Shown here one piece after another: positions 12,001 through 21,000 of a stretch of 64,000 bases of DNA; the stretch's first letter is position 1, and every line of letters starts with the position of its first letter. Position numbers: made by a program. This stretch comes from Escherichia coli (lineage in GTDB: Bacteria; Pseudomonadota; Gammaproteobacteria; Enterobacterales; Enterobacteriaceae). The stretch lies in the NCBI RefSeq assembly GCF_024298765.1, contig NZ_CP101210.1; one strand, given 5' to 3'.

Positions 12001-15000
12001 TTATGAACAACCGTCGCATGGAGTGCGGACGCGGTAAGGGGCTTGGCGGGTCATCACTGATCAACGGCATGTGTTACATCCGTGGTAACGCGCTGGATCT
12101 CGATAACTGGGCGAAAGAACCCGGTCTGGAGAACTGGAGCTACCTCGACTGTCTGCCCTACTATCGCAAGGCCGAGACTCGCGATGTGGGCGAGAACGAC
12201 TACCACGGCGGTGATGGCCCGGTGAGCGTCACCACCTCCAAACCCGGCGTCAATCCGCTGTTTGAAGCGATGATTGAAGCGGGCGTGCAGGCGGGCTACC
12301 CGCGCACGGACGATCTCAACGGCTATCAGCAGGAAGGTTTTGGCCCGATGGATCGCACCGTCACGCCGCAGGGCCGTCGCGCCAGCACCGCGCGTGGCTA
12401 TCTCGATCAGGCCAAATCGCGCCCTAACCTGACCATTCGTACTCACGCCATGACCGATCACATCATTTTTGACGGCAAACGCGCGGTGGGCGTCGAGTGG
12501 CTGGAAGGCGACAGCACCATTCCGACCCGCGCGGCGGCGAATAAAGAAGTGCTGTTATGTGCAGGCGCGATTGCTTCACCGCAGATCCTGCAACGCTCCG
12601 GCGTCGGCAACGCTGAACTGCTGGCGGAGTTTGATATTCCGCTGGTGCATGATTTACCCGGCGTCGGCGAAAATCTTCAGGATCACCTGGAGATGTATCT
12701 GCAATATGAGTGCAAAGAACCGGTTTCCCTCTACCCTGCCCTGCAGTGGTGGAATCAGCCGAAAATCGGTGCGGAGTGGCTGTTTGGCGGCACCGGCGTT
12801 GGTGCCAGCAACCACTTTGAAGCAGGCGGATTTATTCGCAGCCGTGAGGAATTTGCGTGGCCGAATATTCAGTACCATTTCCTGCCAGTGGCGATTAACT
12901 ATAACGGCTCGAACGCAGTGAAAGAGCACGGCTTCCAGTGCCACGTCGGATCGATGCGCTCGCCAAGCCGTGGGCATGTGCGGATTAAATCCCGCGACCC
13001 GCACCAGCATCCGGCGATTCTGTTTAACTACATGTCGCACGAGCAGGACTGGCAGGAGTTCCGCGACGCAATTCGCATCACCCGGGAGATCATGCATCAA
13101 CCGGCGCTGGATCAGTATCGTGGCCGCGAAATCAGCCCCGGCGCGGAATGTCAGACGGATGAGCAGCTCGATGAGTTCGTGCGTAACCACGCCGAAACCG
13201 CGTTTCATCCGTGCGGTACCTGCAAAATGGGTTATGACGAGATGGCAGTGGTTGACGCCGAAGGCCGCGTACACAGGCTGGAAGGCCTGCGCGTGGTGGA
13301 TGCGTCAATTATGCCGCAAATTATCACCGGCAATTTGAACGCTACGACGATTATGATTGGCGAGAAAATGGCGGATATGATTCGCGGGCAAGAAGCGTTG
13401 CCGAGGAGCACGGCAAGATATTTTGTGGCAAATGGGATGCCGGTGAGAGCGAAAAAAATGAGTCGTGATGTGAACTAACTCAGGAACCTATCAGATTGAG
13501 AGTTACCGTTCTACTATGAGGACCGAATCCTTATATAAAACACTGAGGTAACTCTCATGCTTCATATCCGCAGTCCCGCCATCAAACTTTAAGCCGATTC
13601 GCTCAATCTGGCGGATGATGGTGCTATGGATACGCTGATAAACCACAAGTGTAATGCCACTCAGCTTAAGAATCACGCAACCAGTGCTCCTGGCTAGGGT
13701 TACTTGTTCTTTCCCACTCCCGGTTAGCAGTGGTCAGCGATCAACTGCGTAAGCCGGGCGTATTTATCCCAAAGCGTGGAGTAATATCAGGTCTACGCTA
13801 AAAAAGTCAATTTATTCGGTTATCATGCACGAAAAGGGGACTTGTGGCGAGTATAAAAATAAGTCAGACCCAAAAACTACGTGGAGCTTTAAACACGGTT
13901 CGTATAATTTATTAGCAGCGATTTATTTTTACCCTTCTTTAATCAGTCATCATGATTAAATATTTTTTATCACAAGATTATCGCTTCTCTAACATTTTAT
14001 TTTTTATTTATTATCAATTGATAAGAAAAAATTGTTAGTACGTTTTTGCAAAAAATTAAAAGTGTTGGAATACACTTAAACAAATGAACAAAAACCAAAC
14101 AAACTGAGATTTGCAATCAGAAAAAATTATTCAAGAGAACATCTCTAATTTATTGGTAGCGTCCATGAACGATGATTTCCTCACAACCAAAAAGTAAAGA
14201 AAATCTTATGATAAGATATATTTGTAAATTAGTATTATTAACGTCAAAGATCTTTTCTTTTCTGCACCCTTACTTTGCAACGCATAAAAAACAAATAAAA
14301 TCAATAATATATGCAGAAAAAGTTATTTTACGTAAAAATAACATTAAATAAATCAAGACTATTGAACATCACTAAAACATTAGACGTAATACACATTCAC
14401 CCCCGCTCCTTGACTCAGGGTTTTAATATTTTTTGTTTCACATCATTGTAGAAAAAATCGCGCATTAAAAATGAGTTGTAGAAAAACCGCACAATAAATA
14501 TTTCATATTTAATCTATTGCGTAGAACTACTATTCAAAAAATCTTATTAATGAGATAATGAAATTACATCGATAACGTTCTGATTGCAGGCACACTTATC
14601 TGGGTGTGCCTCTTTTTTTTACAACTGTACACGGTGGCGTATGACGAGAAAATATCTCACACAGGATGAAGTCTACAGGCTGATGGATGCAGCCCAGAGC
14701 ATGTCCTTTCCTGAAAGAAATCGCTGTCTAATTATGATGGCTTTCATTCACGGTTTTAGGGCCAGTGAACTTCTTGATTTACGTTTATCCGATATTGATG
14801 CATCAGGAAAACAACTTAATATCCGGCGTATTAAAAATGGCTTCTCGACAACACATCCTCTTCTTCCTGATGAATATAATTTGATCAAGTTGTGGCTTAA
14901 GCAGAGGAAGTTAATTGAAAATGGAGTTGAAGGAGACTGGCTTTTTCTCTCCCGGAAACGCCGCCCTATCAGCAGACAACATTTTTTTTCGATCATTCGT

Positions 15001-18000: not shown

Positions 18001-21000
18001 AAAGTTTCAGGGGCAGGAGATGCCAACGTATCTCTGCAAAACGGGTCTGTCTGGAATGTTACGGGTTCCTCAACTGTTGATGCTCTGGCAGTAAAAGACA
18101 GTACGGTAAATATCACGAAGGCTACAGTCAATACTGGCACGTTTGTTTCTCAAAACGGCACTCTGATTGTTGATGCCTCTTCTGAAAACACTCTGGATAT
18201 CAGCGGAAAAGCGAGCGGTGACTTGCGTGTTTACAGTGCGGGTTCATTGGATCTTATCAATGAACAAACGGCATTTATTTCTACCGGCAAAGACAGCACT
18301 CTAAAAGCCACAGGCACAACGGAAGGTGGTCTGTATCAATATGACCTGACACAGGGAGCTGATGGTAACTTTTATTTCGTAAAAAACACGCATAAAGCAT
18401 CCAACGCCAGCTCCGTGATTCAGGCAATGGCAGCTGCTCCGGCTAACGTTGCTAATCTGCAGGCTGACACGCTCTCCGCCCGTCAGGATGCTGTCCGTCT
18501 GAGCGAAAATGACAAGGGCGGCGTATGGATTCAGTACTTTGGCGGTAAACAGAAACATACCACCGCGGGAAATGCATCCTATGACCTGGATGTAAATGGT
18601 GTAATGCTGGGTGGTGATACCCGCTTCATAACTGAAGATGGTAGCTGGCTGGCCGGTGTGGCGATGTCTTCTGCGAAAGGTGACATGACTACCATGCAGA
18701 GCAAAGGTGACACTGAAGGTTACAGCTTCCACGCTTACCTGAGCCGCCAGTATAACAACGGTATCTTCATTGATACTGCTGCACAGTTTGGTCACTACAG
18801 CAACACGGCAGATGTTCGCCTGATGAATGGTGGCGGTACCATCAAAGCTGACTTTAACACCAATGGTTTTGGTGCGATGGTTAAAGGCGGTTACACATGG
18901 AAAGACGGTAATGGCCTGTTTATTCAGCCATATGCCAAACTGTCTGCTCTGACTCTGGAAGGTGTGGATTATCAACTCAACGGCGTGGACGTTCATTCTG
19001 ACAGCTATAACTCTGTGCTGGGTGAGGCCGGTACGCGCGTGGGTTATGACTTCGCTGTGGGCAACGCGACCGTTAAACCTTATCTGAATCTGGCCGCACT
19101 GAACGAATTCTCTGATGGCAACAAAGTCCGTCTGGGTGATGAGTCTGTCAATGCCAGCATTGACGGTGCAGCATTCCGCGTGGGTGCAGGTGTACAGGCT
19201 GATATCACCAAAAACATGGGAGCATATGCAAGCCTTGACTACACCAAAGGTGACGACATTGAGAATCCGCTACAGGGTGTAGTTGGTATCAATGTGACCT
19301 GGTAAGAATAAAGCAGTCGGTTCCCCTGTCGACTGTTATACCCCCTGCAGGCAGCAGTATGCTGCCTGCAGGCTATAAATATCCAGTATTCATGATGCTG
19401 GATATTTGCTGATATTTAACCCGAACATTCCTGATACAGACTATTAATTCATTTATCTGCGGCAGATTTTATTCTCTGAATATATTATGAGTGAACAAAT
19501 CAAACAGGATATCGATCTGATTGAGATTTTATTTTATCTGAAAAAAAAGATTCGTGTTATCCTTTTTATTATAGCTATCTGTATGGCAATGGTGCTGTTG
19601 TTTCTGTATATCAATAAAGATAATATAAAAGTGAGTTACAGCCTAAAAATAAACCAGACAACACCAGGCATACTTGTTAGCTGTGATAGCAATAATAACT
19701 TTGCCTGTCAGACCACAATGACTGAAGATGTTATTCAGCGAATTACTACATTTTTTCAAACCAGCCCAGATGTCAAGAACAGAGAAATAAAGCTGGAATG
19801 GTCAGGAGATAAGAGAGATTTACCAACTGCTGAAGCGGAAATATCTCGCGTGCAGGCGTCTATCATCAAATGGTATGCGTCAGAATACCATAATGGCAGG
19901 CAAGTTCTCGATGAGATACAAACGCCTTCAGCAATTAACAGTGAGCTTTATACAAAAATGATATACCTGACCAGGAACTGGTCACTGTATCCAAACGGTG
20001 ATGGCTGTGTCACTATAAGCTCACCAGAAATAAAAAATAAATACCCTGCTGCCATTTGCCTGGCTCTGGGATTTTTTCTAAGCATTGTGATTTCTGTAAT
20101 GTTTTGCCTTGTCAAAAAAATGGTAGATGAATACCCACAAAACTCTGGGCAGTAATAAACAGCATTCTGACAGAGAGTGCCTGTATAAAACTATAGTGAC
20201 AATGACCGGGAAGGGAGCCCGTCTTCAGGAATGGATTCCTGTCTTTTTCACTGTAAATATCCTGGCATTATTAATGTCAGGATATTTACAGAAGAGCAGC
20301 ATAACCATGACGGAACGGGGTTAAGTCAGGTTGTCCTTAACGCAATTCACAACCTCGTGCCGCCTTCAGGTTTATGTCCAGACTTCATATCTCTCTCAGC
20401 AATCCTCAATAATCAGATACACCGCTTTCACCGGACCATGAACCCCGACGACTTTGATAAGCTCAATGTCCGCCGTTGAACTGGGACCACTGATGATGTT
20501 AATACATGACGGCATTCGTTCACCGGCCTGCGCTTTCTGATGCAATTTTTCTGCGAGTTGCGCTACACGCGGCAGGATTGTGCTTTTACGCAGGATAAAA
20601 AGAGAAGATTCCGGGAGCAGGCTCAATGAACGCCCGCGCCCGGCGGCGGAAAAAAGAACCACGCCTCCCGATTCGGTTAAACCATATTCAGCATATACGA
20701 CGCCCACTTTAGCCTGCTCTGCTTGTGATATGTTCTCAATACCTTTCGCCGGATCCCAAACAACGGCATTGCATTCCTGCTGCAAACGTTCGCTAATCCC
20801 CAATTCCTCCAGCCTCGTGTCACCACTAATCACGACCGACTGATCTCCCAGCTCTTTACACAGACGTATTGCAGCTTCTGCCGCCTTCGCCTCGCTGGTC
20901 AGTTCACAGCGCGTCAACATAACATCGCTGGCAAACTGGATAAACGCGTCACAGCGCTGCTGTTGGGTAAGTTGGGTAAGCCGCTCGTTAGCATAGTTGT

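What the first reader, a model, noticed from the sequence alone, without database searches (positions are those of the whole stretch)
14446..19372. Recombinase / two LuxR-HTH regulators / autotransporter module: candidate phase-variable switch locus inserted between betA and ykgH
A FimB/FimE-family tyrosine recombinase gene is followed on the same strand by two atypical REC-like/LuxR-HTH regulator genes and then a UpaB-like autotransporter adhesin, all inside a roughly 6 kb low-GC insertion that K-12 lacks at the betA-ykgH junction. This gene order mirrors described recombinase-controlled invertible-promoter systems in E. coli (fimB/fimE-fimS-fimA; fimX-hyxR; ipuA-ipuR-upaE). The recombinase also has an unusually long AT-rich leader (1.1 kb) with direct repeats and a hairpin. 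I could not locate the flanking inverted repeats of an invertible segment by eye, so the switch itself is an inference and not demonstrated. If it exists, it would put a regulator and an adhesin under ON/OFF control.
Basis: partly seen in the sequence, partly recalled or inferred. Interest (0 to 1): 0.78.

Follow-up and report, generated by a model that had tools for sequence, protein, structure and literature searches.

The report
Known FimX-HyxR island, switch deleted
This is the already described E. coli island PAI-X (recombinase FimX, regulators HyxR and HyxA, adhesin HyxB/UpaB), but in this strain the 271-bp flip-flop promoter that normally sits between the recombinase and the regulators has been cut out exactly at its own recombination sites, so nothing here can switch ON and OFF any more.

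Summary
It is the known PAI-X island: fimX (ipbA/hbiF), hyxR, hyxA and hyxB (upaB), inserted between betA and ykgH. RefSeq names all four genes in a record 100% identical to the window.

In other strains FimX inverts hyxS, a promoter element bounded by 16-bp inverted repeats between fimX and hyxR. The window lacks hyxS. A 271-bp deletion leaves one hybrid site (15217-15232) and only 58 bp between fimX and hyxR.

Among 5,426 complete E. coli genomes, 1,891 carry this junction:
- 1,781 have hyxS in the common orientation.
- 15 have it inverted.
- 68, mostly poultry isolates, have the window's deletion.
- 19 have the same deletion with the other junction base.

The closest hyxS-bearing relative (STE15) differs by 1 SNP in 2,328 bp. 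Clone D, another deleted strain, is identical to CFT073. The excision is therefore recent and recurrent, with at least 2 and probably 5-6 events.

The breakpoints are the left repeat and a direct copy of it inside a perfect palindrome at the right end. The system is already known. The recurrent self-site excision is a modest new observation, and its mechanism (FimX versus slippage) is unresolved.

The parts
13570..19384 (.). PAI-X island inserted between betA and ykgH. It is 5,815 bp at 44.2% GC. The hexamer ATATCC occurs at both ends (13564-13569 and 19379-19384).
   Evidence: Alignment with the empty site of K-12 derivative DH1 and coordinates and GC content. Of the 5,426 genomes, 1,536 cover at least 80% of window 13400-19500; sampled K-12-type strains match only the betA and ykgH edges.
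13570..14640 (+). AT-rich non-coding stretch upstream of fimX, with GC down to 25% over 13800-14600.
   Evidence: Composition profile and sequence. Only two weak 16-nt direct-repeat pairs are present. The 11-nt inverted repeat 14112/14578 is not conserved in other alleles.
14588..14620 (+). Terminator-like hairpin (10-bp stem, 4-nt loop) followed by eight T, ending about 20 nt before the fimX ATG.
   Evidence: Terminator scan. RNA fold gives -19.4 kcal/mol, z = -2.26. Conserved in six alleles.
14641..15204 (+). fimX (ipbA, hbiF): FimB/FimE-family tyrosine DNA invertase, 187 aa, intact.
   Evidence: RefSeq name in an identical record. NCBIfam NF007370 scores 250.8 bits, above the 221-bit cut-off. 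It is 186/187 identical to CFT073 FimX. In the alignment to XerA the motif stretches GFRASEL, HMLRH, GH and RYT align with XerA's GVRVGEL, HVLRH, GH and IYT; that these hold the catalytic residues is my reading from knowledge of the family.
15217..15232 (+). Excision scar: a single hybrid copy, TGAATCAAAATGTCAG, of the hyxS recombination site. The left flank comes from outside the left repeat (IRL) and the right flank from outside the right-end palindrome. The 271 bp of hyxS that lie here in other strains are missing.
   Evidence: Alignment with AVS0530. Site maps. The junction 47-mer is found in 68 genomes.
15263..16057 (+). hyxR: LuxR-type regulator, 264 aa, intact. It now starts 58 bp after the fimX stop codon and has lost its invertible promoter.
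   Evidence: RefSeq name. Pfam GerE at residues 135-181, E = 3.9e-6. No terminator is predicted between 15204 and 15263.
16157..16183 (.). Perfect 27-bp palindrome GCACGCTGTACAG-C-CTGTACAGCGTGC in the hyxR-hyxA spacer, 27 bp before the hyxA ATG.
   Evidence: Present in all 15 island alleles fetched, with one mismatch in two of them. No T-run follows it.
16211..16972 (+). hyxA: 253 aa. The predicted fold is an atypical receiver domain plus a four-helix LuxR-type DNA-binding domain. No sequence-family match.
   Evidence: RefSeq name. No Pfam or NCBIfam hit. AlphaFold model with pLDDT 79.5. Foldseek hits to FixJ, StyR, VraR and RcsB.
17014..19305 (+). hyxB (upaB): type Va autotransporter adhesin, 763 aa, intact.
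   Evidence: RefSeq name. TIGR01414 barrel at residues 364-763, E = 8.7e-69. The hyxB = upaB equivalence is stated in PMC3789825.

Best explanation
What it is (shown). The region is the known island PAI-X, fimX-hyxR-hyxA-hyxB, at its usual place between betA and ykgH. This allele has lost hyxS, the invertible promoter element.

Architecture in strains that keep hyxS (shown):
- A 246-bp AT-rich segment is bounded by 16-bp perfect inverted repeats: IRL (left repeat) TGATTCAAAATGTCAG and IRR (right repeat) CTGACATTTTGAATCA.
- IRR is the left half of a perfect palindrome, CTGACATTTTGA-A-TCAAAATGTCAG.
- The right half of that palindrome is a direct copy of IRL, matching it at 15 of 16 positions.

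The deletion in the window runs exactly from IRL to that direct copy. It leaves one hybrid site.

How it arose (inferred). Recombination took place between the two directly oriented copies of the switch's own recombination site. I think the most likely agent is FimX itself, at about 0.5. Only the central A/T base pair gives the right-hand site a polarity. A tyrosine recombinase that synapses IRL with the palindrome in the 'wrong' register would therefore excise the segment as a circle instead of inverting it. The single central mismatch would then resolve to either base, which fits the two junction types seen in nature.

Consequences (inferred):
- hyxRAB can no longer be phase-varied in this strain.
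- The best candidate promoter, which lies inside hyxS, is gone. hyxR can be transcribed only by read-through from fimX, 58 bp upstream with no predicted terminator between them. I expect a fixed low or OFF-like level.
- FimX remains intact as an orphan recombinase. By published work it can still act in trans on fimS.

Confidence by step:
- Identity of the locus and the precise deletion: about 0.97.
- Loss of phase variation: about 0.9.
- FimX as the agent: about 0.5.
- Low, fixed hyxR expression: about 0.6.
For: Identity of the locus:
- A RefSeq record 100% identical to the window names ipbA, hyxR, hyxA and hyxB.
- The literature describes PAI-X, the 16-bp inverted repeats of hyxS, and FimX-only inversion.

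The deletion:
- Alignment with AVS0530 shows a 271-bp gap whose ends fall in the repeats.
- Regular-expression maps of IRL, IRR and the direct copy in seven divergent hyxS-bearing alleles show the same three-site architecture.

The element does invert at these sites in nature:
- APEC O18 equals an in-silico inversion of AVS0530 at the inverted repeats.
- 15 genomes carry the inverted orientation and 1,781 the common one.

Recurrence:
- 68 genomes carry the junction TGAATC and 19 carry TGATTC.
- The window allele is 1 SNP in 2,328 from hyxS-bearing STE15, and at least 22 SNPs from the other deleted alleles.
- Clone D i14 is 0 SNPs from hyxS-bearing CFT073.
- The other four deleted alleles differ from one another by 30-67 SNPs.

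Other points:
- STE15 has T in IRL, so the window's A came from the direct copy.
- FimX is intact.
- In CFT073, the best sigma-70-like promoter within the fimX-hyxR spacer lies inside hyxS. It points towards fimX in the common orientation. This orientation is the one found in the CFT073 assembly and in 94% of genomes.
- No terminator is predicted between fimX and hyxR in the window.
- The homologous Salmonella-type T1-antigen switch also has a palindromic right end centred on the same TGA-A-TCA, though an imperfect one.
Against: - No read-level or experimental evidence links FimX to the excision. The 15/16 direct repeat, 271 bp apart and next to a palindrome, is also a good substrate for recombinase-independent slippage.
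- The two junction types do not discriminate between the mechanisms.
- The promoter assignment is a consensus match only, in AT-rich DNA.
- I could not read the primary paper that mapped the hyxR promoter (PMC3809820, not held).
- hyxA and hyxB may have their own promoters. hyxR and hyxA mutants of EC958 have phenotypes, so some expression may be independent of hyxS.
- Read-through from fimX could give more HyxR than the OFF state does, not less.
Confidence: 0.55

Rival explanations
1. Same switchless allele, but the deletion arose without FimX. Replication slippage, or another RecA-independent misalignment, occurred between the two 16-nt direct copies (15 of 16 identical, 271 bp apart). Hairpin formation at the right-end palindrome and IRL-IRR snap-back would help, as in the precise excision of transposons.
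For: - The breakpoints lie in a direct repeat.
- A perfect 25-27-bp palindrome sits at one breakpoint.
- Most independent events (at least 5 of 6 sampled lineages) have the T junction. That is the outcome expected if the switch happens in the longer 12-nt block of identity.
- One deleted genome, FDAARGOS_943, has a frameshifted fimX.
- From my own knowledge: short direct repeats next to inverted repeats are classic slippage hotspots.
Against: - The window's own junction, the A type, needs a crossover within the first 3 nt (TGA) of the repeat, or a heteroduplex repaired to A. That is less expected from simple homology-length rules.
- Six of the seven sampled deleted lineages keep an intact fimX.
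- The repeats are the recombinase's own sites.
Confidence: 0.4
2. One reading: a working invertible promoter is present somewhere in 14446-19372 and still puts hyxR and hyxB under ON/OFF control.
For: - The recombinase is intact.
- One 12-nt perfect inverted repeat exists at 15696-15707 / 16293-16304 with 585 nt between the arms. About 0.07-0.09 such pairs are expected by chance.
Against: - That pair lies inside the hyxR and hyxA coding sequences, so inversion would break both genes.
- None of the 60 genomes sampled across the ranking shows that segment inverted.
- The true switch site is present only once in the whole 64-kb window.
- The 18-nt and 11-nt inverted repeats in the leader are AT-rich chance matches, and the 11-nt one is not conserved in other alleles.
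Confidence: 0.03
3. The module is decaying junk in this lineage. The loss of hyxS is one step of pseudogenisation, as in O157:H7.
For: Decayed versions of the island exist:
- O157:H7 has a frameshifted fimX, an internal stop in hyxR and a broken hyxB.
- A dog-associated lineage has fimX truncated by IS elements.
- FDAARGOS_943 has IS2 inserted in hyxR.
Against: - In the window all four ORFs are full length.
- They carry the same protein accessions as the hyxS-bearing sister strain STE15.
- The deleted allele is shared, with an identical junction 47-mer, by 68 complete genomes from several hosts.
Confidence: 0.05

Closest known systems
FimX (IpbA/HbiF)-hyxS-hyxRAB, pathogenicity island PAI-X of UPEC UTI89/CFT073 (Bateman & Seed 2012, as cited in PMC6083910 and PMC3789825)
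   Same: It is the same locus.
- It sits at the same chromosomal site, betA-ykgH.
- The gene order is the same.
- FimX is 186/187 identical to the CFT073 protein.
- fimX through hyxA is 98.6% identical to CFT073.
- RefSeq gives the same gene names.
   Different: The 271 bp carrying hyxS are missing. That covers both inverted-repeat copies except one hybrid site, together with the candidate promoter. The fimX-hyxR spacer is 58 bp instead of 329 bp.
ipuA/ipuB-ipuS-ipuR-upaE of CFT073 (PMC6083910)
   Same: The logic is the same: a Fim-family tyrosine recombinase, then an invertible promoter, then a LuxR-type regulator and an autotransporter. FimX also inverts ipuS.
   Different: It is a different island. 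It has 7-bp inverted repeats with one repeat inside ipuA, a 260-bp element, two recombinases and one regulator. The window is not this locus.
fimB/fimE-fimS-fimA type 1 fimbrial switch
   Same: The recombinase family and the promoter-inversion principle are the same. FimX acts on fimS in trans.
   Different: fimS has 9-bp inverted repeats (TTGGGGCCA) around 314 bp, and its target is a fimbrial operon. No fimS inverted repeat occurs in the window.
Salmonella STM0716-switch-STM0717/STM0718-T1 antigen locus (PMC11294581)
   Same: - It has a homologous recombinase, which the paper reports as 72% identical to FimX.
- It has a HyxA homologue, 39% identical.
- In a locus of this type that I fetched, the inverted repeats are 16 nt and share TGATTCAAAA with hyxS. 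They are 257 nt apart. The right end is again a palindrome centred on TGA-A-TCA.
   Different: - The downstream cargo is a polysaccharide gene cluster, not an autotransporter.
- The right-end palindrome is imperfect (79%). The direct copy matches IRL at only about 12 of 16 positions by my inspection of the sequence.
Tyrosine-recombinase sites with a symmetric core, such as lox variants with palindromic spacers (my own knowledge, not tested here)
   Same: A site without intrinsic polarity lets the same enzyme give both inversion and excision between two sites.
   Different: This is only an analogy for the proposed mechanism. The cleavage positions of FimX in hyxS are not known to me.

Membership tests
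PAI-X island (fimX-hyxRAB) | Four genes, fimX, hyxR, hyxA and hyxB, in this order on one strand | tested here: met
   ORFs. RefSeq names in a 100% identical record. The four-gene definition is given in PMC3789825.
PAI-X island (fimX-hyxRAB) | Inserted between betA and ykgH, and absent from K-12 | tested here: met
   Empty-site alignment with DH1. The sampled K-12-type genomes match only the edges.
Fim-family tyrosine DNA invertase (FimX) | Score above the curated cut-off of the NCBIfam 'tyrosine-type DNA invertase' subfamily, with the catalytic motif stretches conserved | tested here: met
   NF007370 scores 250.8 bits against a 221-bit cut-off. The GFRASEL, HMLRH, GH and RYT stretches align with the corresponding XerA stretches; their catalytic role is from my knowledge of the family. 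The protein is 99% identical to CFT073 FimX.
hyxS-type invertible promoter switch | Two copies of the 16-bp repeat in inverted orientation between fimX and hyxR | tested here: not met
   Only one copy (15217-15232, + strand) and no reverse copy occurs anywhere in the 64-kb window. Sister strain STE15 and CFT073 have both copies.
hyxS-type invertible promoter switch | An AT-rich segment of about 246 bp carrying the hyxR promoter between the repeats | tested here: not met
   There is a 271-bp gap relative to AVS0530, STE15 and CFT073. The fimX-hyxR spacer is 58 bp.
hyxS-type invertible promoter switch | Both orientations are found in populations | tested here: met
   This holds for the family, not for the window. 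There are 1,781 genomes in the common orientation and 15 inverted. APEC O18 equals an exact in-silico inversion. Whether this isolate inverts cannot be tested, and nothing is left to invert.
LuxR/FixJ (NarL)-type response regulator | C-terminal GerE/LuxR helix-turn-helix domain | tested here: met
   HyxR matches Pfam GerE with E = 3.9e-6. HyxA has no sequence match and only a weak in-register hhalign match to HyxR (E = 0.13). The predicted HyxA structure matches full-length FixJ, StyR, VraR and RcsB.
LuxR/FixJ (NarL)-type response regulator | Receiver domain with the phospho-acceptor Asp at the end of strand 3 and the acidic pair after strand 1 | tested here: inconclusive
   By inspection, the predicted HyxA strand 3 (residues 47-51...VVISAGRP...) and strand 1 (MRFVLFCPSG) carry no Asp at these places. 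No residue-level structural superposition was done. HyxR was not modelled.
Type Va autotransporter | C-terminal autotransporter beta-barrel domain and an N-terminal signal peptide | tested here: met
   TIGR01414 matches residues 364-763 with E = 8.7e-69. The N-terminus MKNSKAFYRSALATAIVMALSAPAFA is signal-like by inspection.
ipuS/ipuR/upaE system | Located next to ipuA/ipuB, with 7-bp inverted repeats, one of them inside the recombinase gene | not tested
   I did not compare sequences with IpuA, IpuR or UpaE. The locus is assigned to fimX-hyxRAB by the RefSeq names and by its near-identity to the CFT073 fimX locus.

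The most novel reading that the evidence does not exclude
The right-hand recombination site of hyxS is a perfect palindrome whose polarity rests on one central base pair. FimX therefore occasionally excises its own switch instead of inverting it. This would be a built-in, irreversible exit from phase variation. 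It has been taken repeatedly in E. coli, at least 2 and probably 5-6 times among 87 deleted complete genomes. It has become fixed in a mainly poultry-associated lineage, leaving FimX as an orphan recombinase and hyxRAB under fixed expression.
Probability: 0.45. Interest if true: 0.45.

Novelty: already known. Interest (0 to 1): 0.3.

Why it matters
The system is a published virulence-associated phase switch. HyxR affects nitrosative-stress tolerance, macrophage survival and O-antigen chain length. hyxS inversion was selected under phage pressure in one study.

For annotation, the useful result is negative. A genome can carry fimX and hyxRAB and still be unable to phase-vary them, so presence or absence typing of fimX or PAI-X overstates switching capacity. 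About 4.6% of island-bearing complete genomes (87 of 1,891) are switchless. A further lineage is frozen in the rare orientation by loss of fimX.

If the excision is FimX-catalysed, it would be a natural example of how the symmetry of a recombination site sets the balance between reversible inversion and irreversible deletion.

Tried and rejected
1. Inverted-repeat scans of 13400-17200.
   - The 18-nt AT-rich pair at 13994/14284 was rejected as an AT-rich match.
   - The 11-nt pair at 14112/14578 was rejected: about 0.23 such pairs are expected by chance, and its upstream copy is missing from CFT073-type alleles.
   - The 12-nt pair at 15696/16293 was rejected: it lies inside two coding sequences and no sampled genome shows it inverted.

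2. Direct repeats in the leader. There are only two weak pairs.

3. Rfam search. It gave only a sub-threshold 'IS102 RNA' hit at 14487-14625, 25.8 bits against a gathering score of 46. The hairpin may account for much of that score.

4. HyxA by sequence. There was no Pfam or NCBIfam hit, alone or as a family. BLASTP against HyxR gave nothing. hhalign was weak.
   - The single-sequence AlphaFold model was useless, with pLDDT 40.6.
   - The word-indexed homologue search returned only E. coli variants.
   - The exhaustive HMMER search gave the seven diverse full-length relatives (31-54% identity) that made the second model work.

5. A scan of 100,044 species-representative genomes for the exact 25-nt palindrome gave 0 hits. 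One possible reason, which I did not check, is that the E. coli representative genome lacks the island. The Salmonella-type site differs in sequence.

6. The two primary Bateman papers (PMC3809820, PMC3749053) are not held. I could not check the mapped hyxR promoter, or whether a hyxS-less allele was already noted there. No held paper that mentions hyxS, PAI-X or hyxR describes such a deletion.

7. Using the junction base (A or T) to tell site-specific excision from slippage. Both mechanisms can give both outcomes, so I dropped this.

Full report
**1. What is in the window**

The ORF list shows betB and betA ending at 13478. Four same-strand ORFs follow, and then ykgH at 19487. A megablast of 13400-19500 against 5,426 complete E. 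coli genomes found a record 100% identical over the whole query: strain 104, from chicken.

The RefSeq annotation of that record names the genes. In window coordinates they are:
- ipbA, 'tyrosine-type DNA invertase IpbA, also known as HbiF and FimX', 14641-15204.
- hyxR, 15263-16057.
- hyxA, 16211-16972.
- hyxB, 17014-19305.

Alignment with the empty site of a K-12 derivative places the island at 13570-19384. That is 5,815 bp at 44.2% GC, against 48.3% for the rest of the window. The hexamer ATATCC occurs at both ends.

**2. The proteins**

- FimX scores above the curated cut-off of the NCBIfam invertase subfamily (250.8 against 221 bits). It differs from CFT073 FimX at one residue of 187. The GFRASEL, HMLRH, GH and RYT stretches align with the corresponding stretches of XerA; from my knowledge of the family, these hold the catalytic residues.
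- HyxR has a GerE/LuxR helix-turn-helix domain (E = 3.9e-6).
- HyxA has no Pfam or NCBIfam match, alone or as a family, and no BLASTP similarity to HyxR.
  - An exhaustive HMMER search found a small family, with seven full-length relatives at 31-54% identity.
  - An AlphaFold model built on that alignment has pLDDT 79.5 and pTM 0.74. Its order of secondary-structure elements is five beta-alpha units followed by four helices.
  - Foldseek matches full-length FixJ, StyR, VraR, RcsB, DesR and LiaR (E down to 6e-6).
  - By inspection, the usual phospho-acceptor Asp positions are not occupied.
- HyxB has an autotransporter barrel.

**3. The switch that should be there**

Published work states the following:
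- FimX inverts hyxS, an element next to fimX that controls hyxR.
- hyxS has 16-bp inverted repeats.
- Only FimX acts on it (PMC6083910 and PMC6458436).

In AVS0530, CFT073, NGF1, STE15 and O157:H7 the fimX-hyxR spacer is 329 bp. It has this layout:
- IRL (left repeat), TGATTCAAAATGTCAG, lies 12 bp after the fimX stop codon.
- 246 AT-rich bases follow.
- IRR (right repeat), CTGACATTTTGAATCA, closes the segment.

IRR overlaps by 7 nt a direct copy of IRL, TGAATCAAAATGTCAG. The right end is therefore a perfect palindrome, CTGACATTTTGA-A-TCAAAATGTCAG. Only its central base pair is asymmetric. This three-site layout is identical in all seven hyxS-bearing alleles I fetched, in either orientation.

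**4. The window lacks it**

Here the spacer is 58 bp. Alignment with AVS0530 shows one 271-bp gap. The flanks are otherwise nearly identical. The window reads ...ACCTTC-TGAATCAAAATGTCAG-GTTTTG..., a single hybrid site at 15217-15232. No reverse copy occurs anywhere in the 64 kb.

The deletion therefore runs from IRL to the direct copy inside the palindrome.
- One 12-nt perfect pair at 15696/16293 lies inside hyxR and hyxA. About 0.07-0.09 such pairs are expected by chance.
- The AT-rich pairs in the leader look like chance matches, and the 11-nt one is not conserved.

**5. Census**

A 587-bp query of both flanks plus hyxS hits 1,891 genomes. Of these, 1,781 match it at full length. The same query with hyxS inverted in silico is matched at full length by 15 genomes. 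APEC O18 aligns to the in-silico inversion base for base across both repeats, so inversion at these repeats is visible in public assemblies.

Six of the 15 inverted genomes are annotated with a truncated 'DNA recombinase' in place of ipbA. In the one I fetched, fimX is truncated next to IS elements, so the switch is frozen there.

Two 47-mers were designed so that hyxS-bearing genomes cannot match them at full length:
- The window-type junction 47-mer (base A) hits 68 genomes, all at 100% identity. In the 60 listed, 36 are from poultry and 15 from humans.
- The variant with T at the polymorphic position hits 19 genomes at full length and 100% identity. These include clone D i2 and i14, baboon, armadillo and seawater isolates, and O84:H7.

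The four classes sum to 1,883 of 1,891. The rest are IS-disrupted or partial.

**6. Recurrence**

Over 2,328 ungapped columns from fimX to hyxA:
- The window allele differs by 1 SNP from STE15. STE15 keeps hyxS and shares all five protein accessions with strain 104. The window allele differs by at least 22 SNPs from every other deleted allele.
- Clone D i14 is identical to hyxS-bearing CFT073.
- The remaining deleted alleles (PapRG-06-5, A24, O84:H7 Trh52, MB06102) differ from one another by 30-67 SNPs. For three of the four, a sampled hyxS-bearing allele is at least as close as any deleted one.

At least two excisions are certain, and five or six are likely.

STE15 has T in IRL, so the A in the window's scar came from the direct copy.

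**7. Mechanism**

Shown: the breakpoints coincide with the switch's own recombination sites. The event is recurrent and both junction bases occur.

Inferred: either FimX synapsed IRL with the palindrome in the direct register and excised a 271-bp circle, or replication slipped between the 15/16 repeats.
- Under the FimX route, the single central mismatch falls in the exchanged region and segregates to A or T.
- The junction base does not discriminate between the routes.

I favour FimX slightly, at about 0.5 against 0.4. The repeats are its sites. Six of seven sampled deleted lineages keep an intact fimX. The window's A junction would need a crossover within 3 nt of homology under a simple homology-length rule.

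A locus of the homologous Salmonella T1-antigen type (PMC11294581) has 16-nt inverted repeats sharing TGATTCAAAA. Its right end is also palindromic around the same centre, but only 79% so. The palindromic site is therefore a family feature. Its perfection in E. coli is what creates a near-perfect direct repeat.

**8. Consequences for this strain**

In CFT073, the best sigma-70-like match within the fimX-hyxR spacer lies inside hyxS. It points towards fimX in the common orientation. This fits that orientation being OFF. It is the orientation in the CFT073 assembly and in 94% of genomes, and the mBio study reports hyxS locked OFF in its CFT073 derivatives.

That segment is absent from the window. 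No terminator is predicted between fimX and hyxR. I therefore expect hyxR to depend on read-through from fimX, at a fixed and probably low level, with no phase variation.

hyxA and hyxB may have additional control. A conserved perfect 27-bp palindrome lies 27 bp upstream of hyxA. Papers treat hyxRAB as an operon.

By published work, FimX can still act on fimS.

**9. Verdict**

It is wrong about this window, because the switch has been excised.
- The system is already known.
- The recurrent, site-exact loss of hyxS is not mentioned in any paper I could search.

Noticed in passing
window 16157-16183: A perfect 27-bp palindrome, GCACGCTGTACAG-C-CTGTACAGCGTGC, lies in the hyxR-hyxA spacer 27 bp before the hyxA start codon. 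It is present in all 15 island alleles fetched, with one mismatch in two of them. No T-run follows it, so it is not an intrinsic terminator. It could be an operator for a dimeric HTH regulator (HyxR or HyxA) or an RNA stem.
   Followed up: partly
window 14588-14620: A strong terminator-like hairpin plus eight T ends only about 20 nt before the fimX ATG, and is conserved in six alleles. The fimX transcript must either start after it or read through it. A weak sub-threshold Rfam 'IS102 RNA' hit covers 14487-14625.
   Followed up: partly
L003 (APEC O18) about 3119, and L004 (dog isolate Eco_24-2013) 1-3114: APEC O18 has hyxS in the rare orientation, and its fimX carries a +1 G frameshift in the last codons. 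In the dog isolate Eco_24-2013, fimX is truncated next to IS66-type and IS21-type elements and hyxS is frozen in the rare orientation. Five other genomes, three of them from dogs, show the same truncated recombinase annotation. These look like natural locked alleles.
   Followed up: partly
L005 (O157:H7 Rafaela_II): In O157:H7 the island is decayed. fimX is frameshifted, hyxR has an internal stop and hyxB is split. hyxS is still present in the common orientation.
   Followed up: no
L017 4214-4513 (Logan SRR33314334, T1-antigen-type locus): This homologous switch has 16-nt inverted repeats, TGATTCAAAAAGTTAA / TTAACTTTTTGAATCA, 257 nt apart. The published description speaks of 9-bp repeats. The right end forms an imperfect palindrome around the same centre as in hyxS.
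   Followed up: partly
window 13564-13569 and 19379-19384: The hexamer ATATCC is present at both ends of the island and once at the empty K-12 site. This could be a target-site duplication, or simply microhomology.
   Followed up: no
window 13497-13557: An 11-nt perfect inverted repeat, TGAGAGTTACC / GGTAACTCTCA, with 39 nt between the arms lies just after the betA stop codon. It is also present in K-12, so it belongs to the core genome and not to the island.
   Followed up: no
window 16211-16972 (HyxA) and relatives P0032-P0048: HyxA belongs to a very small family: 29 representatives at E <= 0.001 among 1.84 billion, many of them fragments. The family has no Pfam model, although its predicted fold is clearly FixJ/NarL-like. 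Its most conserved stretch is MSERxPxxxKxVLxLLLxGxSxExxARxLxTGxRQVWLAEQxLKxRWxIP.
   Followed up: partly
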